NCBI GenBank assembly: GCA_958428545.1
Contig: CAUAGM010000001.1
Span: forward strand, 158,428 to 222,427
Length of the DNA stretch: 64,000 nucleotides
Source of the DNA: an uncultured Arcanobacterium sp.
Lineage (GTDB): Bacteria > Actinomycetota > Actinomycetes > Actinomycetales > Actinomycetaceae
Reading direction: 5' to 3'
This document shows positions 44,126 to 57,086 of this stretch, one piece after another. Position 1 is the stretch's first letter, and each line of letters begins with the position of its first letter. The notes under the pieces are model-generated. The model was not told the DNA's origin and searched no databases. It saw nothing but the letters and a program-made list of their open reading frames with translations. The translations under genes and the position numbers were made by a program.

Positions 44126-46660
44126 TTGTTTGAACGTTTTACAGATCGAGCACGCCGAGTTATTGTGCTGGCTCAAGAAGAAGCTCGCAGCTTGAAGCAT
44201 AACTATCTCGGCACTGAGCATATCCTTCTTGGTCTCATTAAAGAGGGAGAAGGTGTGGCTGCAAAAGCGCTGGAAGCTCTCAATATTTCTTTTGACGCCG
44301 TGCGCGAGCAGGTTGTGGAGATTATTGGCGAGGGGCAGGAGCACCCGAGTGGGCATATTCCTTTCACTCCGCGTGCTAAGAAAGTGCTCGAATATGCCAT
44401 GCGTGAGGGCTTGCAGCTTGGGCATAGCTATATCGGCACAGAGCATCTGCTTCTTGGATTGTGCCGCGAGCAAGATGGTGTTGCGGCGCAAGTGCTTGTC
44501 AAGCTCGGCTCTGATCTTCCTACTGTGCGCCAGCAGGTGACGCATTTGCTTTCTGGTTTTCCAGGTGGAAAAGAAGCTGTGGGCGTGGGTGCAGGCAATC
44601 AGCGCGAAGGTGGTTTGCGTGCAGGGAGTTCTGTGCTCGATCAGTTTGGGCGTAACCTCACAGCTCTTGCACGTGAAGGCAAGCTCGATCCTGTGATTGG
44701 GCGTCACAATGAGACGCAGCGCGTGATGCAGGTGCTTAGCCGCCGCACGAAAAACAATCCGGCTCTGATTGGTGAGCCTGGGGTTGGGAAAACGGCAGTT
44801 GTGGAAGGGCTTGCCCAGGCGATTGCGGCTCATGATGTGCCTGAGACTCTCAAAGAAAAGCAGCTCTATTCGCTCGATATGGGTTCTTTAGTAGCAGGAT
44901 CGCGCTACCGTGGCGATTTCGAAGAGCGTATGAAGAAAATTTTGAAGGAAATCACGAGCCGCGGAGATATTATCCTCTTCATCGATGAGATTCATACGCT
45001 TGTAGGAGCTGGCGCAGCTGAGGGCGCGCTTGATGCTGCGAGTTTGCTCAAACCGATGATGGCTCGTGGGGAACTGCAGATTATTGGTGCTACCACGCTT
45101 GATGAGTACCGCAAATACATTGAGAAAGATGCTGCACTTGAACGGCGTTTCCAGCCAATTCAGGTGGAGCAGCCAAGTGTGAAAGAGACGATTGCAATTC
45201 TTGAGGGTCTGCGCGATCGTTACGAGGCGTTCCATCATGTGACGATCACCAACGAAGCTCTCGAAGCTGCCGCTAATCTTGCGGATCGTTATATCAATGA
45301 TCGTTTCCTACCGGATAAAGCTATTGATTTGATTGATGAAGCTGGTGCTCGGCTCGCGATTCAGAAGATGACGGCACCGCCAGAGTTGAGTGAGCTTGAT
45401 AAGAAAATTGCGCTCGTGCGCGGCGATAAAGAGGCTGCGATTGACGGGCAGGATTTTGAAAAAGCGGCGGCTCTGCGAGATAAAGAGCAGCAGCTTTCCG
45501 AAGAACGGGCTGAAAAAGAGCGCGCATGGAAAGCTGGAGAGCTGAGCGTCGAAGCTGTAGTTGATGAAGATTTGATTGCGCAAGTGCTGTCGATGAGCAC
45601 AGGTATTCCAGTGTTTAAGCTTACCGAGGCTGAGAGTGCCAAACTTTTGCGTATGGAAGACGAGCTTCATAAGCGTGTGATTGGGCAGGTTGAAGCAGTG
45701 AAGGCTGTGGCTCAAGCTATTCGTCGTTCGCGTGCAGGATTGAAAGATCCAAACCGTCCAGGAGGTTCTTTTATCTTCGCAGGTCCGACTGGTGTGGGTA
45801 AAACAGAGCTTGCTAAGGCTGTGGCTGAATTCTTATTTGGTGACGAAGATGCTTTGATTACGCTTGATATGAGCGAGTATCAGGAGAAGCATACTGTCTC
45901 GCGTCTTTTCGGTGCCCCTCCAGGGTATGTGGGATATGACGAGGGAGGGCAGCTCACAGAGAAAGTTCGCCGTAAGCCATTCTCGGTGGTGCTTTTCGAT
46001 GAGATTGAGAAGGCTCATGCTGATCTGTTTAATTCCCTGCTTCAGATTCTGGAAGAAGGGCGGCTCACAGATTCCCAAGGGCGTATTGTTGATTTTAAGA
46101 ATACGATCATTATTATGACGACTAACCTTGGCACAAAGGATATTGCTAAGGGCGTGCAGACTGGTTTCCAGTTTGATCAAGATGAAATGGCGAGCTATGA
46201 GCGCATGAAGATTCGGGTGAATGAAGAGTTGAAGAATCACTTCCGCCCTGAGTTCTTGAACCGTATAGACGAAATGATTGTGTTCCCGCAGCTTAATCGC
46301 GATGAGATTTTGCGTATTGTAGATTTGATGGTGAGTAAGCTCGACCGTCGTTTGCAGGAAAAGGGTATGAGCCTTGCTTTGAGTGATAAAGCAAAGCAGC
46401 TTCTCGCAGATCGTGGATTTGATCCAGTGCTTGGGGCACGCCCGCTGCGCCGCGCAATTCAGCGCGATATCGAAGATGTGCTTTCGGAGAAGCTCCTCTT
46501 TGGCGAGTTCTGTGAGGGGCAGACGATTGTGGTAGATGTTGATGAGGATAATATTCCGATGAGTTTCACATTTACTGGGCATGATTCGGATTATCAGCTG
46601 CCTGAAGGTATTTCGCATGCTGATAGCATCGATGAGATTGTCGGCTTGCAAGAAAACTAG
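44126..46660 (+). CDS. clpC: ATP-dependent Clp protease ATP-binding subunit ClpC
   Basis: [22 protein letters not shown]-terminus, duplicated Clp_N repeats, two AAA+ modules, UVR-like linker. Confidence 0.93.
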
Positions 46661-46703
46661 ACTAGATGTTTGCACACATGTAGTGATGGTTTTATGCAAT
46701 CTT

Positions 46704-46742
46704 GTGTGGAGCTGCTCTTTGAGTGGCTCCACACGTTTTTCA
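46704..46742 (+). terminator. rho-independent terminator of clpC
   Basis: gtgtggagc (46704-46712) pairs with gctccacac (46726-46734), followed by gttttt. Confidence 0.6.
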
Positions 46743-46815
46743 TATCTTTTCTTCATGTTTTCAATACAAAAGTATTGATTTTATATACAATTGTATGCGA
46801 ACTTAAGGAGAAGCG

Positions 46816-47103
46816 ATGGCAAAAGAAGCTTTAATGCAGTTGCGAATGGATAGTATTGTGAAACAACGTGCAGAAGAAACGTATCGTGCAACTGGTACTT
46901 CTTTTGCTGAAGCAATCCGTATTTTTGCTGTGCAGAGTATCGAAGTTGGTGGTTTCCCTTTTCAGCCTATGATGCGTGGTTCTTCAAAGGCAGGTATGAA
47001 GGGTCGGCTTGCACAATATGCTCAGGCTGATTTAGCTGAGCGAGAAAAAAGAGCTTTTGCCCGTGCATCTGCTAAGAAGCATCAATCGCGGGAAATTAAC
47101 TGA
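46816..47103 (+). CDS. type II antitoxin, RelB/DinJ family
   Basis: 95 aa. N-terminal ribbon-helix-helix-like region resembles DinJ (QLRMDSIVKQRAEETYRATGTSFAEAIRIF). The stop lies 1 nt before the toxin start. Confidence 0.6.
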   Translation: MAKEALMQLRMDSIVKQRAEETYRATGTSFAEAIRIFAVQSIEVGGFPFQPMMRGSSKAGMKGRLAQYAQADLAEREKRAFARASAKKHQSREIN

Positions 47104-47104
47104 A

Positions 47105-47464
47105 ATGCGTTGGCTAATTGATGCAAATGTGATTTTGCGGTATCTGATAGCGGATAATAAAACTCAAGCCGATCGGGCAGAACTCACAATTCGTGAAGGT
47201 GCCTATACAGTTCCAGAAGTGATTGCAGAAGTAGTCTACGTGCTTAATGGCGTTTATAACCTGGAACGTAAGGAAATTTGCCATGTTCTTTCTGATTTAC
47301 TTGAAGAAATAGATATGGCTGAACGAATAATTGTGCTTGAAGCGTTGAAACTTTATTCAAATAAACATATTGATTTTGTAGATGCGATGCTTGTGGCGCG
47401 CGCACATCTGTTAAATGAACACGTATTCACATTTGATAAAAAGATGCGTGATCTTTTGTATTAG
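47105..47464 (+). CDS. PIN-domain ribonuclease toxin (VapC-like)
   Basis: MRWLIDANVIL (first acidic residue), EVI.EV, IDFVDAML..ARAH. Tightly coupled to the upstream antitoxin. Confidence 0.7.
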   Translation: MRWLIDANVILRYLIADNKTQADRAELTIREGAYTVPEVIAEVVYVLNGVYNLERKEICHVLSDLLEEIDMAERIIVLEALKLYSNKHIDFVDAMLVARAHLLNEHVFTFDKKMRDLLY

Positions 47465-47670
47465 CCGATATGTAAATATTTCGACAGGAATGCTGATAAC
47501 GCTGATTGATACACGTGCTTTACCTGTTCATAGAATAAACAAAAATTTGTATGTAGCGTTTGTATGTTAGAGTTTTGGTAATTGGTTCCATGCGTAGTTG
47601 CTTTGAAACAATTCGCGCATAAGACGATCAAAGAGAATAAAGAGAATAAAGCAGAAAGGAGGCAGCTGCG

Positions 47671-47748
47671 ATGAGGAAGAGTTCGTATTACTTCTACTTT
47701 TATTATTTTTCTGCAGGCTGCTCGATTTCTGCAGTATCCACGGCGTAG
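47671..47748 (+). CDS. aromatic amino-acid leader peptide MRKSSYYFYFYYFSAGCSISAVSTA (8 consecutive Tyr/Phe codons)
   Basis: SD sequence aaaggagg 8 nt upstream of the ATG. 25 codons with YYFYFYYF. Lies about 190 bp upstream of the DAHP synthase gene. Confidence 0.6.
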   Translation: MRKSSYYFYFYYFSAGCSISAVSTA

Positions 47749-47774
47749 AAAACGCCTCGGATTAGAGAGAAACT

Positions 47775-47836
47775 AGGCAGCCTGCTTTCAATGTGCATAT
47801 CTGAGCACACAAGGAAGCAGGTTTTTCTTTTCTCTT
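47775..47836 (+). terminator. attenuator terminator candidate downstream of the leader peptide
   Basis: cctgctt/aagcagg outer stem plus tgtgc/gcaca inner stem, followed by tttttcttttctctt. Alternative pairing of gcaggctgc (47712-47720, inside the leader ORF) with gcagcctgc (47778-47786). Confidence 0.45.
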
Positions 47837-47937
47837 ATATCCTCACTAGCACAATTAAATCAGAATGAAGCCTTCACACATATCTCGTGAAGAAGTAAGA
47901 GAAATGATAATAAAAGATAAGGATAAGGAGAAAACAC

Positions 47938-48966
47938 ATGGCAATGGATTTCCACAGAAAGCTTCCGATTCCCAAGGAAGTGAAAGCTCTCTTTCCTGTC
48001 ACAGAGCATATGGCTGAGGTTAAAGCACGGCGTGATACAAATATTAAAGCTGTATTCGAAGGAAGATCTGATAAATTTCTGCTTATTATCGGCCCTTGCT
48101 CGGCTGATCGTAGCGAGCCTGTGCTCGAGTATCTATCGCGGCTTCGTCGAGTTGAAGAAGAAGTAGCAGATAAAATCATCATTATTCCTCGTATTTACAC
48201 AAATAAGCCTAGAACAACGGGTCTGGGCTATAAAGGAATGCTTCACCAGCCAGACCCTGAATCGCAGCCAGATATGTATAAAGGGGTTGTGGCTATCCGT
48301 GAGCTGTATCTTTCAGCTCTTCGAGATTACGACTTTTCATGTGCAGATGAAATGCTTTATCCAGATAACTATCGTTATCTTTCTGATTTGCTTGCTTATG
48401 TGGCGGTAGGGGCACGATCTGTTGAAAATCAGCAGCATCGTCTCACATCAAGCGGTATTGAGGTACCTGTGGGTATGAAGAATCCTACGAGTGGAGACCT
48501 CAACGTGATGATGAATTCTCTTGTGGCAGCGCATTCTGGCCATACATTTATTTATCGTGGCTGGGAAGTGACGAGTTCAGGTAATCCTTATGCTCATGCT
48601 ATTTTGCGTGGTTACAACGATTTTTCTGGTAGAAACGTTTCTAACTATCATTACGAGGATTTGCTTCGAATGCAAGATCTTTATGTGCAGTCAGATCTTG
48701 CTTATCCCTCTGTGATTGTTGATACAAACCATAATAATTCGGGTAAGCAGTATCTTGAGCAGATCAGAATCGCAAAAGATATTATGCATAGCCGCAGTAA
48801 GAATCCAGATATTAAACGTCTCGTGAAGGGCTTAATGATTGAGAGCTATCTTGAAGATGGAGCGCAGAGTGCCCAGGAGCGCATATTCGGCAAATCAATC
48901 ACGGATCCATGCCTTGGTTGGGAAAAAACTGAGCGTTTAATTTTTGAGCTGGCTGAAAAACTCTAA
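47938..48966 (+). CDS. aroG: 3-deoxy-7-phosphoheptulonate (DAHP) synthase, class I
   Basis: 342 aa. LIIGPCSADRSEPVLEY, KPRT and IVDTNHNNSGK motifs typical of AroF/G/H. Confidence 0.9.
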   Translation: MAMDFHRKLPIPKEVKALFPVTEHMAEVKARRDTNIKAVFEGRSDKFLLIIGPCSADRSEPVLEYLSRLRRVEEEVADKIIIIPRIYTNKPRTTGLGYKGMLHQPDPESQPDMYKGVVAIRELYLSALRDYDFSCADEMLYPDNYRYLSDLLAYVAVGARSVENQQHRLTSSGIEVPVGMKNPTSGDLNVMMNSLVAAHSGHTFIYRGWEVTSSGNPYAHAILRGYNDFSGRNVSNYHYEDLLRMQDLYVQSDLAYPSVIVDTNHNNSGKQYLEQIRIAKDIMHSRSKNPDIKRLVKGLMIESYLEDGAQSAQERIFGKSITDPCLGWEKTERLIFELAEKL

Positions 48967-49039
48967 GAGGGATTCTGGGCAAGCGATGGGCAATAATCAA
49001 GGCAAAATTTAGGCGTAGGTTGAAAGGAACGGAGGCGAG

Positions 49040-50125
49040 ATGAGCACGCTTGAAGAAGCTAGGGAAATTATCAATGCTGTTGATGCACACATGGCAGAGC
49101 TTTTTGTGCGTAGAATGAGGGCGGCTGAGAGTATATGTTCCTACAAAAAAGAGCACGGTCTGCCAATTCTAGATTCTCAGCGAGAAGAAGAAGTGATTGA
49201 TGCGAATGCTGAGCTGATTGAGGACGATACTCTCAGGGGCTACTACGTGAGTTATCTCAAACACCTCATGGCAACGTCACGAGCATATCAATATCGCCTA
49301 CAAAACGGGCTGAAAGTGGCATATAGTGGAGTTGAGGGAGCTTTTGCTCATATTGCTGCAGGAAAAATTTTCCCTCAAAGTGCCCGTATGCCATACAGAG
49401 ATTTTCAGACGGCGTATGATTCTGTCGTCACCGGCGAAAGCGATGTGGCTGTGCTGCCGATTGAAAACAGCTACGCGGGCGAGGTTGGGAAAACTATTGA
49501 TTGCATCTTCGAGGGTGGGCTTTTTATTAACGGAATTTACGAGCTGAAGGTGCGCCAGCATCTTTTAGGAGTACCTGGGGCAACGCTTGCGGATATTAAG
49601 ACGGTGACGAGCCATCCGCAGGCACTTGCTCAGTGCCGTGGATATATCGAGATGAGAGAATTTGAGACGGAAGAAGCATCCAATACTGCTGGGGCAGCGA
49701 AAATAGTTGCTCAGAGAAATGAGCTCTCTCTCGCAGCGATCGCAAGCGCTGAAACGGCTGAGATTTATGAGCTTGATGTGCTCGATATGGATATTAATAA
49801 GAGTGGTGAAAATACCACGCGTTTTGCTGTGCTCTCGCGTATTCAGGCAAGCGCGCCAGCAATGAGTAGTTCCGTTCTCATGTTTACTGTGAAGCACGAA
49901 GTGGGTTCACTTGCCCATGCAATCACTATTATCAGCACGCACGGATATAACATGACGGCACTTCGCAGCAGACCATTGAAGAAGGGTTCGTGGCAATACT
50001 ATTTCTATATCGAGATTGATGGCAGAATCGATACTGATAATGGCGAGCGGATGATTGCGGAGCTGAAAAAAGTCTGCGATAAGTTCAAAGTTGCTGGCTC
50101 TTTCACTCCTCACTTCGAGATATAG
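49040..50125 (+). CDS. pheA: bifunctional chorismate mutase / prephenate dehydratase
   Basis: N-terminal AroQ-class chorismate mutase helix (REIINAVDAHMAELFVRRM), PDT domain and C-terminal ACT domain. Confidence 0.88.
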   Translation: MSTLEEAREIINAVDAHMAELFVRRMRAAESICSYKKEHGLPILDSQREEEVIDANAELIEDDTLRGYYVSYLKHLMATSRAYQYRLQNGLKVAYSGVEGAFAHIAAGKIFPQSARMPYRDFQTAYDSVVTGESDVAVLPIENSYAGEVGKTIDCIFEGGLFINGIYELKVRQHLLGVPGATLADIKTVTSHPQALAQCRGYIEMREFETEEASNTAGAAKIVAQRNELSLAAIASAETAEIYELDVLDMDINKSGENTTRFAVLSRIQASAPAMSSSVLMFTVKHEVGSLAHAITIISTHGYNMTALRSRPLKKGSWQYYFYIEIDGRIDTDNGERMIAELKKVCDKFKVAGSFTPHFEI

Positions 50126-50482
50126 GAAAGTGCATACTTGCTAGGAGCGCATATTCACTACGAGTATATACGTGGCAGGAAAGCGCAGCGAGTATACAGG
50201 AAGCAGAGCAAAAACGCAGGAAAGCGCAGTGAGCGCAGCAGGATTAGTGCAGATGGAACGGTATACACGCAAGGAGAAACAACTCAGGGAGCACGAGGAA
50301 GCAACCTAAAACGTATAGAAACGGTACAGACGCAGAGAAACAAAACTAAAAATCAGACCGTATCTGATTAGATTGCATCGTCTAATCGAATTACATCTGG
50401 ATCGGATCAGATTGAATCTATATCACGTACGGATCGAATGCAGCAAAATATATGAATCTGATGGGATTGCAGAGAGGTAAAC

Positions 50483-51718
50483 ATGATTATCCGCATGAAT
50501 CTTGGAGTGCATAGTTACGATATTGTTGTGCGGCGTGCCATTCTTGAGCAGGCGTATCGGCATATAGATCTCAATCGGCGCGTATTGATTGTGACGGATG
50601 AGGGGGTGCCTGCATCGTATACGCACACCCTCGCTCGCCAGTGCAGAGAAAACGTGATTCATGCTGTTGCGGTAGGCGAGAAATCTAAGAGCCTTGAGAT
50701 TTTCGGAGAGCTTCTTCGCACGATGCTCGATCACGATTTTTCCCGAAAAGATTGCGTGGTTGCTCTTGGCGGTGGAGTAGTAGGCGATCTTGCAGGGTTT
50801 GCTGCCTCGGCGTATATGCGCGGAATTGATTTTTATAATATCCCCACCACTCTTCTTTCTCAGATTGATTCTTCGATTGGCGGTAAAACTGGGATTAATT
50901 TTGGCGGAGTGAAAAACTCGGTAGGTGCTTTTTATCAGCCGAAGAAAGTGCTTATTGATCCTGAGCTTTTGTGCACTCTCCCGCCGCGGCATATTTCAAA
51001 TGGGCTTGCCGAAGCAATCAAAATGGCGCTCACATCGGATAGAGATCTTTTTGAACTTTTTGAGCGCAAAGATTACGGGATTGGTAATTATGAAATTCTT
51101 ATAGATGAGATTATTGAGCGTTCTCTTATTATTAAAAAGAGTGTGGTTGAGCAAGATGAAAAAGAATCTGGTATGCGCAAAATACTGAATTTCGGGCATA
51201 CTATCGGGCACGGCATTGAAGCGAGTATCGGCATTGGCGCTGGCAGTGAAGCTCGTGACGGTGAGAGCGATAGTTGCGGCGAAGGCGTCGGAAGCACAGT
51301 ATTCGCTAGTGAAGGCGTTAGTAGTGAAGGCCTTAGCAAGAAAGGTGGCAGCGCAGGAGTAGATGCTGGGCATGAAATCACAAGCTGGGAAGAGGCTTGG
51401 CAAACGATGAAGCTTTATCATGGCGAATGCGTGGCTCTAGGTCTGATTCCGATGTGTGATGAAGAGATTCGCTCTCGCGTGATTGATGTTCTCAAAAAAT
51501 ACAACCTCTATCGAAATCTTGATTACGATTGGTGTGCAATTGAGCAAGCGGCATTTCACGATAAAAAAGCAGATGGAGGATCCGTCACGGTCACGCTTGT
51601 GCATGAGCCAGGTAGCTGTGAAATGGTGACGATGGAATGCGGCGCCGTCATTGAACGAGCAAAAGCTTGCCTAGGAAAAGGCAAAAATCTCTCATCGCTG
51701 CCCCCGAGAAGCGAATAA
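50483..51718 (+). CDS. aroB: 3-dehydroquinate synthase (with internal Gly/Ser/Glu-rich insertion of about 50 aa)
   Basis: GGGVVGDLAGFAA, TTLLSQIDSSIGGKTGINF, GHTIGHGIEA motifs. The insert GAGSEARDGESDSCGEGVGS...GVDAG lies between conserved blocks. Confidence 0.88.
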   Translation: MIIRMNLGVHSYDIVVRRAILEQAYRHIDLNRRVLIVTDEGVPASYTHTLARQCRENVIHAVAVGEKSKSLEIFGELLRTMLDHDFSRKDCVVALGGGVVGDLAGFAASAYMRGIDFYNIPTTLLSQIDSSIGGKTGINFGGVKNSVGAFYQPKKVLIDPELLCTLPPRHISNGLAEAIKMALTSDRDLFELFERKDYGIGNYEILIDEIIERSLIIKKSVVEQDEKESGMRKILNFGHTIGHGIEASIGIGAGSEARDGESDSCGEGVGSTVFASEGVSSEGLSKKGGSAGVDAGHEITSWEEAWQTMKLYHGECVALGLIPMCDEEIRSRVIDVLKKYNLYRNLDYDWCAIEQAAFHDKKADGGSVTVTLVHEPGSCEMVTMECGAVIERAKACLGKGKNLSSLPPRSE

Positions 51719-51740
51719 AGGAAAATAGGGGAGAATACTA

Positions 51741-53051
51741 ATGAAAAATACTTTTGGATCCAGCGTGGCTCTCACCCTTTTTGGGGAAAGCCACGGGCAA
51801 TATATTGGAGCCACTCTCGATGGTTTAGCGCCGGGAATTACAATCGATCATGAGTATATCTCGCATATGCTCACTTTGCGCCGCCCTTCTGGCAGAATTT
51901 CTACTCAGCGCCGAGAGAATGATCAGTATCGCATTATCAGCGGTGTAAGGGAGATAAGCGAAGAGAAATTTTTTGCCCGCTTGGAAAGCGGCAATGCGGA
52001 TATATGTGCAGGCAATGATGGAGAAAAACAATGCGGGAGCGAAAAAGGCAGTGTGCGCGCACAAAACAGTGTGCAGATCACGACGGGTGCGCCCCTAACT
52101 ATTCTTATCCCTAATGAGAACGTGCGAAGCTCGGATTACAGCGCAATCAGCACGATTGCTCGCCCGTCTCATGCTGATTACGCGGCAGAGTGTAAATATC
52201 ACGGTTTCCAGGATTCACGCGGCGGCGGGCATTTCAGCGGGCGGCTTACAGCTGCTCTCGTGGCTGCAGGTGCTGTGTGTAAATCTGCGTTGGAGAAAAA
52301 AGGAATTTTGATCGGCACGCACGTAAAAAAATGTGCAGGAATCTCAGATAGAGAATTTGGCACTACTGTGAGCGGTATTGTGCGAGATATTAAGAGCCTT
52401 AATGCCAAGGTGTTTGCAACTCTCAGTGAAACGAGCCAGGAGCACATGCGTGAGGCGATTCTTGAGGCCGCCACGCAGGGCGATAGCGTGGGAGGTGTGC
52501 TCGAAACTGCTGTGATTGGAATGCCGCACGGAGTGGGGGAACCTTGGTTTGACGCCGTAGAGAGCCTGCTTGCTCATATGCTTTTTTCGATTCCTGCCGT
52601 CAAAGGCGTTGAGTTTGGTGCGGGATTTGCTCTTGCAGATATGAGAGGGAGCGTTGCTAACGATCCTTTTGCAATAAGCGGCGGAAAAGTTGTGTGTGCC
52701 AGCAACAATAACGGCGGAATTAACGGCGGAATTACGAACGGTATGCCTATTATTTTCCGAACCGTGGTTAAACCTACTCCAACGATTTATAAGCTGCAAG
52801 AAACAGTTGATTTTTCAGCAATGAAGGAAACTGTGTTACAAGCAAAAGGGCGGCACGATCCTGCGATTGTGCATAGGGCGCGCGTGGTACAAGACGCCGC
52901 TTCAGCGATTGTGTTTGCAGATGCACTCGCCATGCGTTTCGGCACGGATTGGCTCGCCTCTGTGCGTCTGGCGGAGCGTGCAGACGCGGATTGCTGTGCT
53001 CGCTTCAATAGTGAACGCGATCTGCAGATGCTGGAGAAGGCAGAAAAATGA
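51741..53051 (+). CDS. aroC: chorismate synthase (with insertion of about 44 aa after the SGV block)
   Basis: FGESHG, RRPS/GR, SDYSAI, RPSHADY, RGGGHFSGR and VKPTPTI motifs. Confidence 0.88.
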   Translation: MKNTFGSSVALTLFGESHGQYIGATLDGLAPGITIDHEYISHMLTLRRPSGRISTQRRENDQYRIISGVREISEEKFFARLESGNADICAGNDGEKQCGSEKGSVRAQNSVQITTGAPLTILIPNENVRSSDYSAISTIARPSHADYAAECKYHGFQDSRGGGHFSGRLTAALVAAGAVCKSALEKKGILIGTHVKKCAGISDREFGTTVSGIVRDIKSLNAKVFATLSETSQEHMREAILEAATQGDSVGGVLETAVIGMPHGVGEPWFDAVESLLAHMLFSIPAVKGVEFGAGFALADMRGSVANDPFAISGGKVVCASNNNGGINGGITNGMPIIFRTVVKPTPTIYKLQETVDFSAMKETVLQAKGRHDPAIVHRARVVQDAASAIVFADALAMRFGTDWLASVRLAERADADCCARFNSERDLQMLEKAEK

Positions 53052-54355
53052 AAAAAGCTTTTTATGTAAAGAAAGTATCTGAGAAAAGATATGGCTGCAT
53101 CGGTAAGAAGCTCGCACATAGTTTCTCGAAAGAGATTCATGCTCAGCTCGCAGATTATGATTACGAATTGATCGAGCTGGCTGAAGAGGAGCTTGCGCCG
53201 TTTTTAGAAGAAAAAAACTTTGCCGCAATCAACGTCACTATTCCCTATAAAGAAGCAGTGATCCCGTATCTTGATTCGTTGAGCGACGTAGCGGCACGGA
53301 TTGGCGCTGTGAATATCGTGGTGAATAGAGAGGGCAAGCTCTTTGGCGACAACAGCGATTATGCGGGGCTGAAAGCACTTATCGATCGGGTGGGGGTTTC
53401 CCTCGTACAGAAAAAAGTGCTTGTGCTTGGCACTGGAGGAGCCAGCAAGACGGCCTGCATCGTCGCCGAAGATTTAGGAGCTGTTGAAATCCTGAGGGTG
53501 AGCAGAAGGAAAAAACTTGGAAGCGTCACCTATGAAGAAGCTTTGGCAGAGCATACAGATGCGCACGTTATTATCAACACCACTCCAGTGGGAATGTTTC
53601 CCGATTGCGATGCGCAGCCTTTGGATATCGAATCATTTTCACAGCTCGAAGGCGTGATTGATGCTATCTATAACCCGCTGCGGACTAATCTTGTGCTGAG
53701 TGCGCGTGAGCGAGGCATTTTGGCTGAGGGGGGATTGTATATGCTGGTGGCGCAGGCTGTTGCTGCAGTTGAAGCATTTCTCGGAACGCCGATTCCGCAC
53801 GAAACTACTGAGCGCATTTACGCTCGCATACTTTCCTCGAAAGAAAACATTGTGCTGACGGGTATGCCTGGGAGTGGCAAGAGCACAGTAGGCGCCTGCT
53901 TGGCTAGCGATATGGTGTGCAGGGCAGAAGTGCTGAGTGGTTATGAATTTTTCGATACCGATAGTGAGATTGAAAAGCTCTGCGACGTTTCCATCAAAGA
54001 ACTCATCGAGACGCGCGGAGAAGAGTATTTCCGTAATCTGGAAACGAAGGTGATTGCCGAAGTATCTTCGCAGCACAGCCGAATTATCTCAACAGGCGGC
54101 GGCGCTGTGCTTCGCGAGGAAAACGTGCGGGCGCTTAAGAGAAATGGCAGGCTGTTTTTTCTCGATGCTGATATTCGACGCTTACAAGCCACACAGAGCA
54201 GACCGTTGGCAAATACATACGAAAAGCTGAAAAAGCTTTATGAGCAGCGATTGGAAACGTACAAAACAACTGCCGATGCTGTGGTGCCCGATATGGAAAC
54301 GCCTCAGGCTTTGGCAGACGCTGTGATAGAGAAGCGAAAGGAGCCTATCGCATGA
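53048..54355 (+). CDS. aroE: bifunctional shikimate dehydrogenase (N-terminal) / shikimate kinase (C-terminal) fusion
   Basis: N-terminal AroE motifs (YGCIGKKLAHSFSKEIH, NVTIPYKE, NTTPVGM). C-terminal AroK P-loop GMPGSGKSTVG and LID region. ATGA overlap with aroC. Confidence 0.8.
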   Translation: MKKAFYVKKVSEKRYGCIGKKLAHSFSKEIHAQLADYDYELIELAEEELAPFLEEKNFAAINVTIPYKEAVIPYLDSLSDVAARIGAVNIVVNREGKLFGDNSDYAGLKALIDRVGVSLVQKKVLVLGTGGASKTACIVAEDLGAVEILRVSRRKKLGSVTYEEALAEHTDAHVIINTTPVGMFPDCDAQPLDIESFSQLEGVIDAIYNPLRTNLVLSARERGILAEGGLYMLVAQAVAAVEAFLGTPIPHETTERIYARILSSKENIVLTGMPGSGKSTVGACLASDMVCRAEVLSGYEFFDTDSEIEKLCDVSIKELIETRGEEYFRNLETKVIAEVSSQHSRIISTGGGAVLREENVRALKRNGRLFFLDADIRRLQATQSRPLANTYEKLKKLYEQRLETYKTTADAVVPDMETPQALADAVIEKRKEPIA

Positions 54356-54993
54356 GGATTCTCGTCATCAATGGCCCTAATCTCAATATGCTTGGTATTC
54401 GAGAGCCAGAGCATTACGGGAAAGAAACATACGCGGATCTGGAAGAGAAAATCAGCACCTACTGTCAGAGCCGAAATATTGCCGTCACGCTCTATCAATC
54501 CAATTATGAGGGGGCGCTCGTTGATGAGATTCAGAAGGCATACGGAGAAGCTGATGGGATTGTGATTAACCCTGGAGCTTATACCCATACAAGTATTGCC
54601 ATATTAGATGCGCTCACGGCGGTAGGGATTCCTGCAGTTGAAGTGCATATTTCAAAGCTGGAAGAGCGGGAAGATTTTCGGCAGGTGAGCTATATTCGCC
54701 GTGCTTGTACGGCTACTATCACTGGGCGCGGCACAGATGGATATCTTGAGGCTATCGACTTTTTACTTCGCTTCCTCAAGGGAGAGCACACTCAGGATCA
54801 TGGAGAAAATGTTGCGGCGTGTGACGACGCTCGTGACGGCAATGATGACGGTGACGATAATCGTGTGAGTGTTTGCGGCGAAAACGTCAGCGAGACCTGC
54901 GGTGAAAACGTCGGCGAGATCTGCGGCGAAGATAACGCCTACAGTGAGGCTTGCGAGAATATCGTTGCTAGGAATTGCGAGGAATTGCAGTGA
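54352..54993 (+). CDS. aroQ: type II 3-dehydroquinate dehydratase with about 60-aa acidic Cys-rich repetitive C-terminal tail
   Basis: MRILVINGPNLNMLGIREPEHYG...HISK matches type II DHQase. The tail has CGENVSETCGENVGEICGEDN repeats. Confidence 0.85.
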   Translation: MRILVINGPNLNMLGIREPEHYGKETYADLEEKISTYCQSRNIAVTLYQSNYEGALVDEIQKAYGEADGIVINPGAYTHTSIAILDALTAVGIPAVEVHISKLEEREDFRQVSYIRRACTATITGRGTDGYLEAIDFLLRFLKGEHTQDHGENVAACDDARDGNDDGDDNRVSVCGENVSETCGENVGEICGEDNAYSEACENIVARNCEELQ

Positions 54994-55002
54994 GGTGGAA
55001 TC

Positions 55003-56235
55003 GTGATTATTGAAGTAGAGCCGTGCGTGCTGGCTGGGAGGATAGCTGCTCCTCCTTCAAAAAGTATGGCTCACAGATACCTGATCGCCGCAGCACTTTC
55101 TGGGCACGAATGCACTCTTTCAGGCGTTGACGGCTGCGAAGATATTTTGGCAACGATTGATTGCCTGCAGGCTTTAGGAGCACAGATTGAGCTGCGAGGT
55201 GGAAGCGAAGAATCAGGCGAACGCGCCGCAACCGCCCATATTGCTCCAGGTCGGTTTATGCGAGCAGGCAGTCGCATTCTAGAGTGCCGAGAAAGCGGCA
55301 GCACGCTTCGTTTCTTTATTCCACTTGCGCTATGCTTGGGTGAGCCAGTCACTTTGCGCGGAAGCGCTCGGCTCTTTGAGCGTCCGCTTGGCGTCTATGA
55401 AGATCTCTGCCGTGCTCACGGTTTCACGTTTCATAAAGAGGCTGATTCGGTGACGGTGTGCGGAAGCTTGCAGGGCGGCGCGTACGAGCTGGAAGGCGGC
55501 GTGAGCAGTCAGTTCATCACAGGGCTTATATGTGCGCTCGTATATCGCGGCGGCGATTCACTTCTTCATATTCTTCCGCCTTTTGAAAGTAGATCATATG
55601 TGGATCTGACGATTCGTGCGTTGCGAGCTTTCGGCGTACATATAGAGTTTACTGATACCTATACCATCGGCATGTGCTCTTCAAAAATGAGAGGATACAA
55701 CGGAAAAATCGAGGGCGACTACTCAAATGCGGCGTTTCTTGATGCCTTCAACGAACTTGGCTCCAGCATCACAGTGATGAATCTGGATCCGAGCAGTGCT
55801 CAAGGCGATAGGGTGTATCGAAAGTATTTCTCGCTCATATCATCTGGCACACCTACGCTGGATATTTCCGATTGCCCAGACCTCGGACCAATTCTTTTTG
55901 CGCTTGCTGCCATGAAAAACGGCGCAGTTTTTACGGGCACAGATCGCTTAAAAGCAAAAGAAAGCGACCGTGGGCGTGCGATGGATAGTGAGTTGCGAAA
56001 ACTTGGAGGCGGGCTTATCTTCGGTGAAAACTCCATCACCGTGCCCAAGCAGGAGCTTCGTAGCTCAGAGGCTCTTTTAAGCAGCCATAACGATCATCGT
56101 ATCGCGATGGCGCTCGCGGTGATTCTTTCAAGAATTGGAGGATCGATTGAAGGAGCCGAAGCCGTGAGGAAGAGCTATCCGAGATTTTTTGACGATCTTA
56201 CGATGCTAGGAGCAAAGGTAAAGAAAATATGCTAG
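55003..56235 (+). CDS. aroA: 3-phosphoshikimate 1-carboxyvinyltransferase (EPSP synthase)
   Basis: LAGRIAAPPSKSMAHR, D..GNSGT-like and RxxxR motifs. 410 aa. Confidence 0.88.
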   Translation: MIIEVEPCVLAGRIAAPPSKSMAHRYLIAAALSGHECTLSGVDGCEDILATIDCLQALGAQIELRGGSEESGERAATAHIAPGRFMRAGSRILECRESGSTLRFFIPLALCLGEPVTLRGSARLFERPLGVYEDLCRAHGFTFHKEADSVTVCGSLQGGAYELEGGVSSQFITGLICALVYRGGDSLLHILPPFESRSYVDLTIRALRAFGVHIEFTDTYTIGMCSSKMRGYNGKIEGDYSNAAFLDAFNELGSSITVMNLDPSSAQGDRVYRKYFSLISSGTPTLDISDCPDLGPILFALAAMKNGAVFTGTDRLKAKESDRGRAMDSELRKLGGGLIFGENSITVPKQELRSSEALLSSHNDHRIAMALAVILSRIGGSIEGAEAVRKSYPRFFDDLTMLGAKVKKIC

Positions 56236-57086
56236 TTCAGGTAGATAAGAAAATTTTGATTGTTGGCCTCGGGCTTCTCGGCGGAAGCTATGCTCGGGCG
56301 CTCAAGCGGCTCGGTTTCCATATCAGCGCTATCACAAAAGAAGAATCATCTATCGATTATGCGCTGCGCGAGGGGATTATCAACGAAGGATCTGCGAAGC
56401 TTGATCCAGGTATTATTGGCTCGGCAGATCTCGTGATTTTTGCTCTCTATCCGCACGTTTTTGTGCAGTGGATTGAGGATAATCAGGAGTTGCTGAAAAG
56501 CGGCGCGCTCCTCACAGACGTAACGGGCGTTAAAGGAAGTATCGTTTATAAGATTCAAGATATGCTTCGCGATGACGTCGAGTTCATTGCGGCGCACCCG
56601 ATGGCTGGGCGTGAGCTTTCCGGCGTGGAAAACAGTACGGATACGATTTTTGCTGGAGCGAACTATATCGTCACTCCAACTGCAAAGAATACGCAAGATG
56701 CGATAGAAACCTGCATGGAGCTTGGCAAACTGCTCGGCTTTTCTCGTGTGGCAACTCTTTCTCCTGAAGAGCATGACGAGATGATTGGTTTTCTTTCTCA
56801 GCTTACGCATTGTATTGCTATTTCTTTGATGACGTGCAACAGCAAAGAGCATATGCAAGCCTTTACTGGCGATTCTTTCCGAGATCTCACGCGCATTGCG
56901 AGAATCAATGATGAGATGTGGAGTGAGCTTTTTATTGAGAATAAGACGGCTCTTTTGGAGCAGATGGATCTTTTTCTTTCTACGTTCACCGATCTTAGAA
57001 CGATGATAGAAACTGAAGATGTGGCTGCGATGAGGGCGCTTATGCGCTATTCCACCGAGCGCCGAGCGCTCTTCGATAAGAATTAG
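56229..57086 (+). CDS. tyrA: prephenate (or arogenate) dehydrogenase
   Basis: Rossmann motif ILIVGLGLLGGS and TyrA catalytic domain. Overlaps the aroA stop. Confidence 0.8.
   Translation: MLVQVDKKILIVGLGLLGGSYARALKRLGFHISAITKEESSIDYALREGIINEGSAKLDPGIIGSADLVIFALYPHVFVQWIEDNQELLKSGALLTDVTGVKGSIVYKIQDMLRDDVEFIAAHPMAGRELSGVENSTDTIFAGANYIVTPTAKNTQDAIETCMELGKLLGFSRVATLSPEEHDEMIGFLSQLTHCIAISLMTCNSKEHMQAFTGDSFRDLTRIARINDEMWSELFIENKTALLEQMDLFLSTFTDLRTMIETEDVAAMRALMRYSTERRALFDKN

What the first reader, a model, noticed from the sequence alone, without database searches (positions are those of the whole stretch)
47655..47836. Tyr/Phe-rich leader peptide attenuator in front of the shikimate/aromatic supraoperon
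A 25-codon ORF (MRKSSYYFYFYYFSAGCSISAVSTA) has a strong SD sequence (aaaggagg, 8-nt spacer) and eight consecutive Tyr/Phe codons. It sits about 190 bp upstream of aroG. Its 3' part can pair with gcagcctgc at 47778-47786. That segment alternatively pairs with aagcagg to form a hairpin followed by a U-run (tttttcttttctctt). This is the classic architecture of ribosome-mediated transcription attenuation, comparable to pheL/trpL and the aroR leader reported upstream of aroF in Corynebacterium. It would couple the whole eight-gene aro operon to charged tRNA-Tyr/Phe levels. The ORF is below the 60-aa cut-off of the supplied ORF track.
Basis: partly seen in the sequence, partly recalled or inferred. 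Interest (0 to 1): 0.75.

Follow-up and report, generated by a model that had tools for sequence, protein, structure and literature searches.

The report
Phe/Tyr leader-peptide attenuator before aro operon
A 25-codon mini-gene packed with tyrosine and phenylalanine codons, followed by mutually exclusive RNA hairpins and a terminator, sits in front of the aromatic amino-acid biosynthesis operon of an uncultured gut Clostridia bacterium; it is almost certainly a classical ribosome-sensed on/off switch, of a sequence family that has no Rfam entry.

Summary
ORF 47671-47748 (MRKSSYYFYFYYFSAGCSISAVSTA) has an AAAGGAGG Shine-Dalgarno (SD) site 8 nt upstream and eight consecutive Tyr/Phe codons. Simulated 64-kb sequences reach runs of only 3-5.

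The interpretation also holds. I found 23 homologous leaders upstream of the orthologous DAHP-synthase operon in gut Clostridia MAGs and metagenome contigs.
- All 24 keep SD, start codon and reading frame. Every gap in the aromatic run is a multiple of 3.
- All have a mixed Phe+Tyr run, no Trp codon, and a hairpin followed by a T-run.
- The terminator helix shows compensatory changes at 6 of 10 pairs (0/500 shuffles).
- The competing antiterminator helix, between a segment just after the aromatic run and the 5' terminator strand, is paired in 91% of cells (slid controls 14-44%).

Two features were not in the finding:
- The SD-adjacent segment pairs with the antiterminator strand.
- The leader stop codon sits at the apex of a structurally conserved hairpin inside the antiterminator.

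Some close relatives carry a Phe T-box at this position instead. No Rfam family matches and I found no paper describing it. It is a new member of a known kind. There are no experimental data, and no promoter is identifiable in the window.

The parts
47655..47662 (+). Shine-Dalgarno sequence AAAGGAGG of the leader ORF, 8 nt before the ATG
   Evidence: Read directly from the sequence. GGAG lies 5-13 nt before the start codon in all 24 homologous leaders.
47651..47669 (+). Segment 0/1: the 5' strand of the anti-antiterminator. It overlaps the SD and pairs with 47713-47732.
   Evidence: It is part of the MFE fold. As a duplex it gives -25.2 kcal/mol. SD-region to A-segment complementarity exceeds shuffles in most of the 24 leaders, mean z -1.8. 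GGCAG/CTGCC becomes GACAG/CTGTC in L012 and L083.
47671..47748 (+). Leader ORF, 25 codons plus TAG: MRKSSYYFYFYYFSAGCSISAVSTA
   Evidence: The homologous ORFs are 18-26 codons long, 23 start with ATG and 1 with GTG, and the frame is kept throughout.
47686..47709 (+). Control codons: eight consecutive Tyr/Phe codons (YYFYFYYF)
   Evidence: Simulated sequences reach a maximum run of only 3-5. The run is conserved as a run of 5-9 positions, at most one of them non-aromatic. Of its 168 codons, 163 are TTT, TTC, TAT or TAC. All gaps in the run are multiples of 3.
47713..47722 (+). Segment A/2: the 5' strand of the antiterminator, inside the ORF and 4 nt after the last aromatic codon
   Evidence: It pairs with 47776-47785, 10 bp, -21.3 kcal/mol. 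The helix is paired in 90.8% of cells across 24 leaders, against 14-44% when the partner is slid.
47736..47762 (+). Inner hairpin of the antiterminator, with the leader stop codon (47746-47748) at its apex
   Evidence: Fold of the truncated transcript. A sequence-variable hairpin lies between A and B in the 24 leaders, mean z -2.4. The stop codon is in its apical part in most of them.
47776..47789 (+). Segment B/3: the shared strand. 47776-47785 pairs with A (antiterminator). 47779-47789 pairs with C (terminator).
   Evidence: The two helices overlap by 7 nt in the window and by 5 alignment columns in the family.
47813..47823 (+). Segment C/4: the 3' strand of the terminator stem
   Evidence: The terminator helix is paired in 93.7% of cells, 6 of 10 pairs carry compensatory changes, and 0 of 500 shuffles reach the observed values.
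47822..47836 (+). U-run of the intrinsic terminator (tttttcttttctctt)
   Evidence: A T-run follows the stem in all 24 leaders.
47938..57086 (+). Presumed regulated operon: DAHP synthase, pheA (CM/PDT), aroB, aroC, aroE-aroK, aroQ, aroA, tyrA
   Evidence: NCBIfam hits for all eight ORFs. Neither intergenic spacer (73 nt and 357 nt) holds a terminator-like site; four weak consensus matches lie inside coding sequence, within chance expectation (6 found on both strands, shuffles give 8.0).

Best explanation
This is a ribosome-mediated (leader-peptide) transcription attenuator. It sets read-through into the aromatic amino-acid operon according to the supply of charged tRNA-Phe and tRNA-Tyr.

**Shown**
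- A conserved, translatable 25-codon ORF with eight Tyr/Phe codons.
- Four RNA segments that form three mutually exclusive helices, 0:A, A:B and B:C.
- B:C is an intrinsic terminator followed by a U-run.

**Inferred mechanism**
1. *Phe or Tyr scarce.* The lead ribosome stalls in the first five or six aromatic codons. Its front edge is then still upstream of segment A (47713-47722). A is also kept apart from the SD-adjacent segment 0. When RNA polymerase makes B, A:B and the inner stop-codon hairpin form a long antiterminator. This occupies the bottom of the terminator stem, and transcription continues into the DAHP synthase gene and beyond.
2. *Both amino acids plentiful.* The ribosome runs through A to the stop codon at the apex of that hairpin and unwinds its 5' arm. 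B is therefore free when C emerges. B:C forms and transcription ends at 47822-47836.
3. *Leader not translated.* Segment 0 pairs with A and also buries the SD. B:C again forms, so the default state is off.

Tyr and Phe codons are interleaved, so lack of either amino acid should stall the ribosome within the first three codons of the run. Trp is not sensed.
For: **Coding signature**
- Of the 24 leaders, 23 start with ATG and 1 with GTG, and every one has GGAG 5-13 nt upstream of the start codon.
- The ORFs are 18-26 codons long. Every one contains both Phe and Tyr and none contains Trp.
- 163 of the 168 run codons are TTT, TTC, TAT or TAC.
- All alignment gaps in the run are multiples of 3.

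**Position**
- The leader always lies on the coding strand upstream of the orthologous operon, whatever the upstream neighbour is. In L010 it lies upstream of tyrA-aroG.
- A profile search found exactly one copy in the window.

**Terminator**
- 93.7% of cells are paired and 6 of 10 pairs carry compensatory changes.
- 0 of 500 shuffles reach the observed values on any measure.
- A T-run follows the stem in all 24 leaders.

**Antiterminator**
- 90.8% of cells are paired, against 14-44% for slid partners.
- Three pairs carry double changes, and 1-5 of 500 shuffles reach the observed values.
- The A, B and C segments of the window differ from the family consensus, yet both helices are retained.

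**RNA-level constraint inside the ORF.** The codons GGC TGC CCG that form segment A are conserved at their third positions.

**Energetics in the window.** 0:A is -25.2, A:B is -21.3 and B:C is -17.3 kcal/mol.

**Folding of transcripts**
- In transcripts cut before C, A:B forms with probability 0.54-1.00 in 11 of the 16 leaders of the first alignment (0.75 in the window); in five it is 0.24 or less.
- That probability falls when a ribosome footprint is placed on the last one or two aromatic codons.
- Full-length transcripts at equilibrium prefer the terminator in 13 of those 16 (L003, L008b and L017 do not).

**Stop codon.** It lies at the apex of a conserved hairpin between A and B.

**Same site, different sensor.** A Phe-type T-box occupies the same position in a relative with 79% AroG identity. 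The T-box core motif is found there in five more loci. So this site is a place where tRNA charging controls the operon.
Against: - There is no transcriptomic, ribosome-profiling or reporter evidence.
- No sigma-70-like promoter was detected upstream in the window. By eye there is only TTGATA-19 nt-TAGAAT near 47517-47547. Many homologues, by contrast, have a clear TTGACA...TATAAT about 30 nt before the SD. The leader may instead be reached by read-through from the upstream toxin-antitoxin-like genes.
- In the window and about two thirds of the homologues, A ends 18-21 nt before the stop codon. A ribosome at the stop codon therefore does not cover A in a simple footprint model. Folding with that mask still allows A:B. 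Blocking has to be steric or kinetic.
- Covariation for A:B is modest, because the helix is mostly invariant.
- 0:A is absent in the aroG-proximal copies of the tandem leaders.
- The U/A-rich extension helix does not beat slid controls.
- Transcription and translation are reported to be largely uncoupled in Bacillus subtilis (Johnson et al. 2020, as reviewed in PMC7858274). It is not known whether they are coupled in this lineage.
Confidence: 0.87

Rival explanations
1. The alternative hairpins form a ligand-, tRNA- or protein-controlled attenuator of the T-box, riboswitch or TRAP/PyrR type. On this view the small ORF is incidental and is not translated.
For: Firmicutes normally control aromatic operons with T-boxes or RNA-binding proteins. 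A T-box sits at this position in L007. The pyrimidine-rich run could in principle be a protein-binding site.
Against: - No Rfam family matches, even with permissive searches of the 221-nt leader.
- There is no T-box core motif in the window leader.
- SD, start codon and frame are conserved. Gaps occur only in multiples of 3, and substitutions within the run are confined to Phe/Tyr codons. These are coding signatures, not RNA-motif signatures.
Confidence: 0.05
2. The ORF encodes a functional small hydrophobic peptide, for example a membrane peptide or a type I toxin-like product. The hairpin would then simply be that gene's own terminator, with no regulatory link to the aro operon.
For: The peptide is short, aromatic and hydrophobic. 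A toxin-antitoxin-like pair lies immediately upstream in the window.
Against: - The link to the DAHP-synthase operon holds in 24 contexts with different upstream neighbours.
- Outside the aromatic run and the RNA-constrained GGC-TGC-CCG, the peptide varies in sequence and in length, 18-26 residues.
- The competing A:B helix overlaps the terminator strand.
- Tandem duplicated copies occur in three loci.
Confidence: 0.03
3. The element is a leader-peptide attenuator, but it acts mainly on translation or mRNA stability rather than by premature transcription termination. For example, SD sequestration by 0:A, or effects on translation of the DAHP synthase gene, could dominate.
For: The 0:A helix buries the leader SD and is the most stable helix in the window. 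Transcription-translation coupling may be weak in Firmicutes (PMC7858274).
Against: - A GC-rich stem immediately followed by a T-run is conserved in 24 of 24 leaders, with compensatory changes. That is the signature of an intrinsic terminator.
- The SD of the DAHP synthase gene lies about 90 nt beyond the terminator and takes no part in any conserved pairing I detected.
Confidence: 0.05

Closest known systems
E. coli pheL-pheA leader-peptide attenuator (Rfam Phe_leader, which I recall as RF01859)
   Same: A short leader ORF rich in aromatic codons is followed by alternative antiterminator and terminator hairpins upstream of a chorismate mutase/prephenate dehydratase gene. It senses charged tRNA through ribosome stalling (mechanism as summarised in PMC11802643).
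   Different: - There is no detectable sequence or structure homology. No Rfam hit appears even at E <= 10.
- Here Tyr and Phe codons are mixed rather than Phe alone.
- The whole common pathway plus tyrA lies downstream, not pheA alone.
- Segment 1 overlaps the SD rather than the control codons.
- The host is a Clostridia bacterium, not a proteobacterium.
aroR leader upstream of aroF in Corynebacterium glutamicum (Neshat et al. 2014, as described in PMC11802643)
   Same: A leader peptide with Phe and Tyr codons lies upstream of an operon that begins with a DAHP synthase gene, and it works by ribosome-mediated attenuation.
   Different: - AroR has only a Phe-Tyr-Phe triplet, and it is reported to respond to Phe but not Tyr. 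Here there are 5-9 run positions with both residues strongly represented.
- The phylum differs (Actinobacteria).
Predicted His leader-peptide attenuators in Firmicutes: Bacillus cereus group, Peptostreptococcaceae, Erysipelotrichales (PMC9413887)
   Same: These are classical leader-peptide attenuators in Firmicutes, in lineages that lack the usual T-box or repressor. They were also found by comparative genomics only.
   Different: They sense a different amino acid (3-5 His codons), control a different operon and occur in different families. They are independent inventions.
T-box leader (RF00230)
   Same: It occupies the same genomic position upstream of the orthologous operon in related genomes (L007, 110 bits, specifier read as UUC). 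It reads the same signal, tRNA charging, and has the same output, terminator versus antiterminator.
   Different: A T-box binds uncharged tRNA directly and needs no translation. The window leader has no T-box motifs and no Rfam match.

Membership tests
Ribosome-mediated (leader-peptide) transcription attenuators | A short ORF with a ribosome-binding site and start codon in the 5' leader of a biosynthetic operon | tested here: met
   In the window: SD AAAGGAGG, an 8-nt spacer, ATG and 25 codons. These features are conserved in all 24 leaders.
Ribosome-mediated (leader-peptide) transcription attenuators | A cluster of codons for the amino acid(s) that the regulated pathway makes | tested here: met
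   There are eight consecutive Tyr/Phe codons, and the downstream genes make chorismate, Phe and Tyr. The run is conserved, contains no Trp codons, and no trp genes lie in the operon.
Ribosome-mediated (leader-peptide) transcription attenuators | An intrinsic terminator between the leader ORF and the first structural gene | tested here: met
   Stem 47779-47789/47813-47823 plus a U-run. Compensatory changes occur at 6 of 10 pairs and 0 of 500 shuffles match.
Ribosome-mediated (leader-peptide) transcription attenuators | An antiterminator helix that excludes the terminator and whose 5' strand is exposed or hidden according to ribosome position | tested here: met
   A:B shares 5-7 nt with the terminator strand. 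It is 90.8% paired across 24 leaders. A begins 4-6 nt after the run, so a footprint on the last codons masks it while earlier stalls leave it free.
Ribosome-mediated (leader-peptide) transcription attenuators | An anti-antiterminator (1:2) helix that gives termination when the leader is not translated | tested here: inconclusive
   SD-adjacent segment 0 pairs with A in most leaders, mean z -1.8, and covaries in L012 and L083. It is absent in L008b, L084b and L085b. Unlike the classical design, segment 1 does not contain the control codons.
Ribosome-mediated (leader-peptide) transcription attenuators | Read-through responds to the charged-tRNA level and requires leader translation | not testable with these tools
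   This needs transcript mapping or reporter assays in the organism or a surrogate host.
Rfam Phe_leader / leu-phe leader / other curated leader families | A match to the family covariance model | tested here: not met
   No leader family was reported at E <= 10 in 47630-47850 or in 46500-49000, and none at gathering score in the whole window.
T-box leader (RF00230) | Stem I with a specifier loop, and the conserved T-box sequence in the antiterminator bulge | tested here: not met
   There is no Rfam T-box hit in the window. The same search finds a T-box in L007, so the test is able to detect one.

The most novel reading that the evidence does not exclude
This could be an undescribed, lineage-specific family of Phe/Tyr leader-peptide attenuators in Oscillospirales-type gut Clostridia. 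It would have repeatedly exchanged places with Phe T-boxes at the same operon. In three of the loci found it is duplicated in tandem. It uses an SD-sequestering anti-antiterminator and places the stop codon at the apex of the antiterminator.

If it works as proposed, the lead ribosome must keep pace with RNA polymerase over about 150 nt in these Firmicutes. That contrasts with the 'runaway transcription' reported for Bacillus subtilis. The family would then be a natural probe for transcription-translation coupling in Clostridia.
Probability: 0.5. Interest if true: 0.55.

Novelty: new member of a known kind. Interest (0 to 1): 0.45.

Why it matters
**Regulation of the pathway.** The element would explain how this group of uncultured gut Clostridia controls the whole shikimate/Phe/Tyr pathway. 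Annotation pipelines miss it, because the ORF is short and there is no Rfam model.

**Rarity in Firmicutes.** Classical leader-peptide attenuation is rare in Firmicutes, where T-boxes dominate. Only predicted His examples were found in the literature searched (PMC9413887).

**Interchange with T-boxes.** Close relatives carry either this leader or a Phe T-box at the same site. That is a clean case of two mechanisms reading the same signal, tRNA charging, and replacing one another.

**Coupling.** The mechanism depends on the ribosome following RNA polymerase closely. The element therefore offers a direct test of whether transcription and translation are coupled in Clostridia, a matter questioned for Bacillus (PMC7858274).

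**Practical use.** The 24-sequence alignment could seed an RNA family model. Deleting the attenuator would be an obvious step for aromatic-compound overproduction.

Tried and rejected
- **Rfam.** I searched at gathering score on the whole window, and permissively on 2.5 kb and on 221 nt. Only chance-level eukaryotic miRNA and snoRNA hits appeared. T-box, Phe_leader and leu-phe leader membership are rejected.
- **TRAP-like (G/U)AG repeats.** By eye, 47759-47776 holds only three or four triplets, too few for a TRAP site. I did not pursue this.
- **Equilibrium folding with ribosome masks.** Folding the full-length leader with ribosome masks does not discriminate between states. The terminator wins in most sequences whatever the mask, as expected for a kinetically controlled switch. 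I replaced this test with folding of transcripts cut before segment C.
- **Ribosome at the stop codon covering segment A.** This holds only for the five leaders where A ends 6-15 nt before the stop codon. It fails for the window, where the distance is 21 nt. I therefore infer steric or kinetic blocking through the apex-located stop codon.
- **U-rich/A-rich extension of the antiterminator (columns 86-91 with 136-141).** It is no better than slid controls, so it is not claimed.
- **Promoter scan.** It found nothing in 47300-48100.
- **Closer relatives.** The metagenome scan with AroG found none above 82% identity. The window-specific A/B/C variant could therefore not be checked in near-identical genomes.
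- **Literature.** Searches for a Phe/Tyr leader peptide in Clostridia returned nothing relevant.

Full report
**1. Observation**

- AAAGGAGG lies at 47655-47662, followed by an 8-nt spacer and ATG at 47671.
- The ORF has 25 codons, MRKSSYYFYFYYFSAGCSISAVSTA, with TAG at 47746-47748.
- Eight consecutive Tyr/Phe codons occupy 47686-47709.
- GCAGGCTGC is at 47713-47721.
- AAGCAGG is at 47815-47821 and is followed by tttttcttttctctt at 47822-47836.

The run is not a composition effect. It is the longest in-frame aromatic codon run in all six frames of the window (8). In 60 first-order Markov simulations the maximum was 3-5. No other small ORF in the window has at least 7 of 8 aromatic residues.

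The leader is strongly structured, with an MFE of -70.9 kcal/mol and z = -4.7.

**2. Context**

Eight co-directional ORFs lie downstream:

| Coordinates | Product |
|---|---|
| 47938-48966 | AroF/G/H-type DAHP synthase |
| 49040-50125 | chorismate mutase/prephenate dehydratase |
| 50483-51718 | AroB |
| 51741-53051 | AroC |
| 53048-54355 | AroE-AroK fusion |
| 54352-54993 | AroQ |
| 55003-56235 | AroA |
| 56229-57086 | TyrA |

No trp genes are present. No convincing terminator lies in the intergenic spaces. A 357-nt purine-rich spacer between pheA and aroB remains unexplained.

Upstream are a RelB/DinJ-like antitoxin ORF and a 135-aa ORF.

AroG relatives come from uncultured gut Clostridia: MAGs labelled Oscillospiraceae, Acutalibacteraceae and Eubacteriales. 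The best identity is 80-82%.

**3. Comparative evidence for the ORF**

I scanned the regions upstream of aroG in 160 related loci. This gave 23 further leaders:
- L001-L005, L008 (two copies), L010, L012, L014-L018 and L075;
- from metagenomes, L081-L083, L084 (two copies), L085 (two copies) and L091.

A profile built from them finds exactly one copy in the window, at 47655-47831.

Coding signatures in the 24 leaders:
- 23 start with ATG and 1 with GTG.
- GGAG lies 5-13 nt upstream of the start.
- The ORFs are 18-26 codons long.
- The aromatic run spans 5-9 positions and always mixes Phe and Tyr. There is never a Trp codon.
- 163 of the 168 run codons are TTT, TTC, TAT or TAC.
- Every alignment gap in the run is a multiple of 3.

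The peptide consensus is M-x-x-N-K-[FY]n-x-K-G-C-P-x-F-V. The residues after the run, however, are fixed at the nucleotide level, third positions included (GGC TGC CCG). This points to an RNA constraint rather than a peptide constraint.

Genes upstream of the leader differ between loci and lie on either strand. Many homologues show a clear TTGACA...TATAAT promoter just before the SD.

**4. RNA structure**

On the 24-sequence alignment A2:

| Helix | Columns | Cells paired | Slid controls | Pairs with double changes | Shuffles reaching observed |
|---|---|---|---|---|---|
| Terminator (B:C) | 150-160 with 188-197 | 93.7% | 28-49% | 6 of 10 | 0 of 500, all measures |
| Antiterminator (A:B) | 74-83 with 145-154 | 90.8% | 14-44% | 3 of 10 | 1-5 of 500 |

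The antiterminator helix is mostly invariant, so the covariation for it is modest. The window's own A, B and C segments depart from the consensus: GCAGGCUGCU, GGCAGCCUGCUUUC and GGAAGCAGG, against GGGCUGCCCG, CGGACAGUCCGCAUU and AAUGCGGA. Both helices are kept all the same, which is itself compensatory evidence.

Window pairings:
- Antiterminator: 47713-47722 with 47776-47785, -21.3 kcal/mol. It stacks on 47726-47730 with 47768-47772 and on the hairpin 47736-47762.
- Terminator: 47779-47789 with 47813-47823, -17.3 kcal/mol, with an apical 47792-47796 with 47805-47809. The U-run follows.

Two features were not in the finding.
- **(i) An SD-adjacent segment pairs with A.** 47651-47669 pairs with 47713-47732, at -25.2 kcal/mol. 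This is the strongest of the three helices. It is part of the MFE fold. Across the family this complementarity exceeds shuffles in most leaders, with mean z -1.8. GGCAG/CUGCC changes to GACAG/CUGUC in L012 and L083. It is missing in the aroG-proximal copies of the three tandem pairs. I rate it as probable.
- **(ii) A structurally conserved hairpin lies between A and B.** The stretch between A and B always folds into a hairpin of variable sequence, mean z -2.4. In most leaders the stop codon sits in its apical part.

**5. Mechanism**

Shown:
- the ORF;
- the three mutually exclusive helices;
- the terminator;
- the geometry, in which A begins 4-6 nt after the last aromatic codon.

Folding results:
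- In transcripts cut before C, A:B forms with probability 0.54-1.00 in 11 of the 16 leaders tested (0.75 in the window); in five it is 0.24 or less.
- That probability drops when a ribosome footprint sits on the last one or two aromatic codons. It does not drop for earlier stall positions.
- At equilibrium the full-length RNA prefers the terminator in 13 of those 16. This is as expected for kinetic control.

Inferred sequence of events:
1. A ribosome stalled early in the run keeps segment 0 and segment A apart and leaves A free. A:B and the inner hairpin then form as soon as B is made. The base of the terminator stem is occupied, and transcription reads through.
2. A ribosome that does not stall unwinds A and the 5' arm and pauses at the apex stop codon. 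B then pairs with C, and transcription terminates.
3. Without translation, 0:A sequesters both A and the SD, and termination follows.

Interleaved Tyr and Phe codons make either amino acid limiting within the first three codons of the run.

Weak points:
- In the window, A ends 21 nt before the stop codon. A ribosome at the stop codon does not cover A in a simple footprint model, so steric or kinetic arguments are needed.
- The promoter in the window is unidentified.
- Nothing has been measured experimentally.

**6. Comparison with what is known**

- **Mechanism.** It matches classical attenuators such as pheL-pheA. It also matches the aroR leader upstream of aroF in Corynebacterium glutamicum, which has a Phe-Tyr-Phe motif and responds to Phe (Neshat et al. 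2014, as described in PMC11802643).
- **Rfam.** It is not a member of any Rfam family.
- **Firmicutes precedent.** In the literature I could search, leader-peptide attenuators in Firmicutes are only predicted, for His operons (PMC9413887). An older comparative paper states that aminoacyl-tRNA synthetase genes in Firmicutes use T-boxes and none uses classical attenuation (PMC1262725).
- **Clostridia.** Searches for a Phe/Tyr leader in Clostridia found nothing. Subscription-only literature could not be searched.
- **T-box at the same site.** A relative with 79% AroG identity (L007) has a T-box at this position, 110 bits, with the specifier reading GAA-UUC-A, which is Phe. Five more loci show the T-box core motif there.
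- **Coupling.** The dependence on a closely following ribosome is of interest because transcription is reported to outrun translation in Bacillus subtilis (PMC7858274).

**7. Verdict**

This is a well-conserved, computationally well-supported Phe/Tyr leader-peptide transcription attenuator.
- It is a new member of a known kind.
- It has some design peculiarities: an SD-sequestering first segment, a stop codon at the antiterminator apex, and tandem duplication in relatives.
- Confidence in the mechanism class is about 0.87.
- Interest is moderate, 0.45.

Noticed in passing
L008 3613-3766 and 3814-3972; L084 1119-1269 and 1301-1454; L085 1107-1271 and 1312-1466: Three related loci carry two complete F/Y leaders, each with its own terminator, in tandem upstream of aroG. 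The aroG-proximal copy lacks the complementarity between the SD region and segment A that the distal copy has.
   Followed up: partly
L007 3651-3902; also L088 about 1147, and L154, L155, L157, L158 about 1358-1374: A T-box leader (RF00230, 110 bits) occupies the position of the leader peptide upstream of the orthologous aroG. Its specifier reads UUC (Phe). The T-box core motif lies upstream of aroG in five more loci. So the two tRNA-sensing mechanisms replace each other.
   Followed up: partly
L037 from 3764; L064 from 3774: A second, divergent leader type lies upstream of aroG, for example MNILRGIRNNRFYYYHHCGFSAFAEMH. It has a terminator of its own. In truncated folds the segment after the F/Y/H codons pairs with the 5' terminator strand.
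   Followed up: partly
L073 3809-3907; L078 2649-2756: A third kind of Phe-rich small ORF, 32-35 aa and ending ...KLPVRR or ...KLLVRV, lies upstream of the aromatic genes with a terminator downstream. The simple folds showed no clear antiterminator.
   Followed up: no
L010 2816-2987 and 3024-3881: Here the same leader precedes a 285-aa prephenate dehydrogenase-like ORF that is followed by aroG. In most of the more distant loci aroG directly follows such an ORF of about 286 aa, and no leader was found within the 4 kb held.
   Followed up: partly
window 50126-50482: A 357-nt purine-rich spacer between pheA and aroB contains the repeated motif GCAGGAAAGCGCAG. It has no Rfam hit, and no promoter-like or terminator-like site was detected. 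Its function is unknown. It leaves open whether the distal six genes are co-transcribed with the first two.
   Followed up: no
window 47871-47893: A hairpin (CCTTCACacatatctcGTGAAGG-like) lies between the leader terminator and the SD of the DAHP synthase gene. The scan flagged it only as a minus-strand terminator-like site.
   Followed up: no
window 46816-47464: A RelB/DinJ-family antitoxin-like ORF (95 aa) overlaps a 135-aa ORF with no NCBIfam hit. This is a probable toxin-antitoxin pair immediately upstream of the leader on the same strand, with no terminator detected between them.
   Followed up: no
window 50483-51718 and 51741-53051: AroB (411 aa) and AroC (436 aa) are longer than the family profiles, and each matches in two stretches. 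This suggests insertions or extensions.
   Followed up: no
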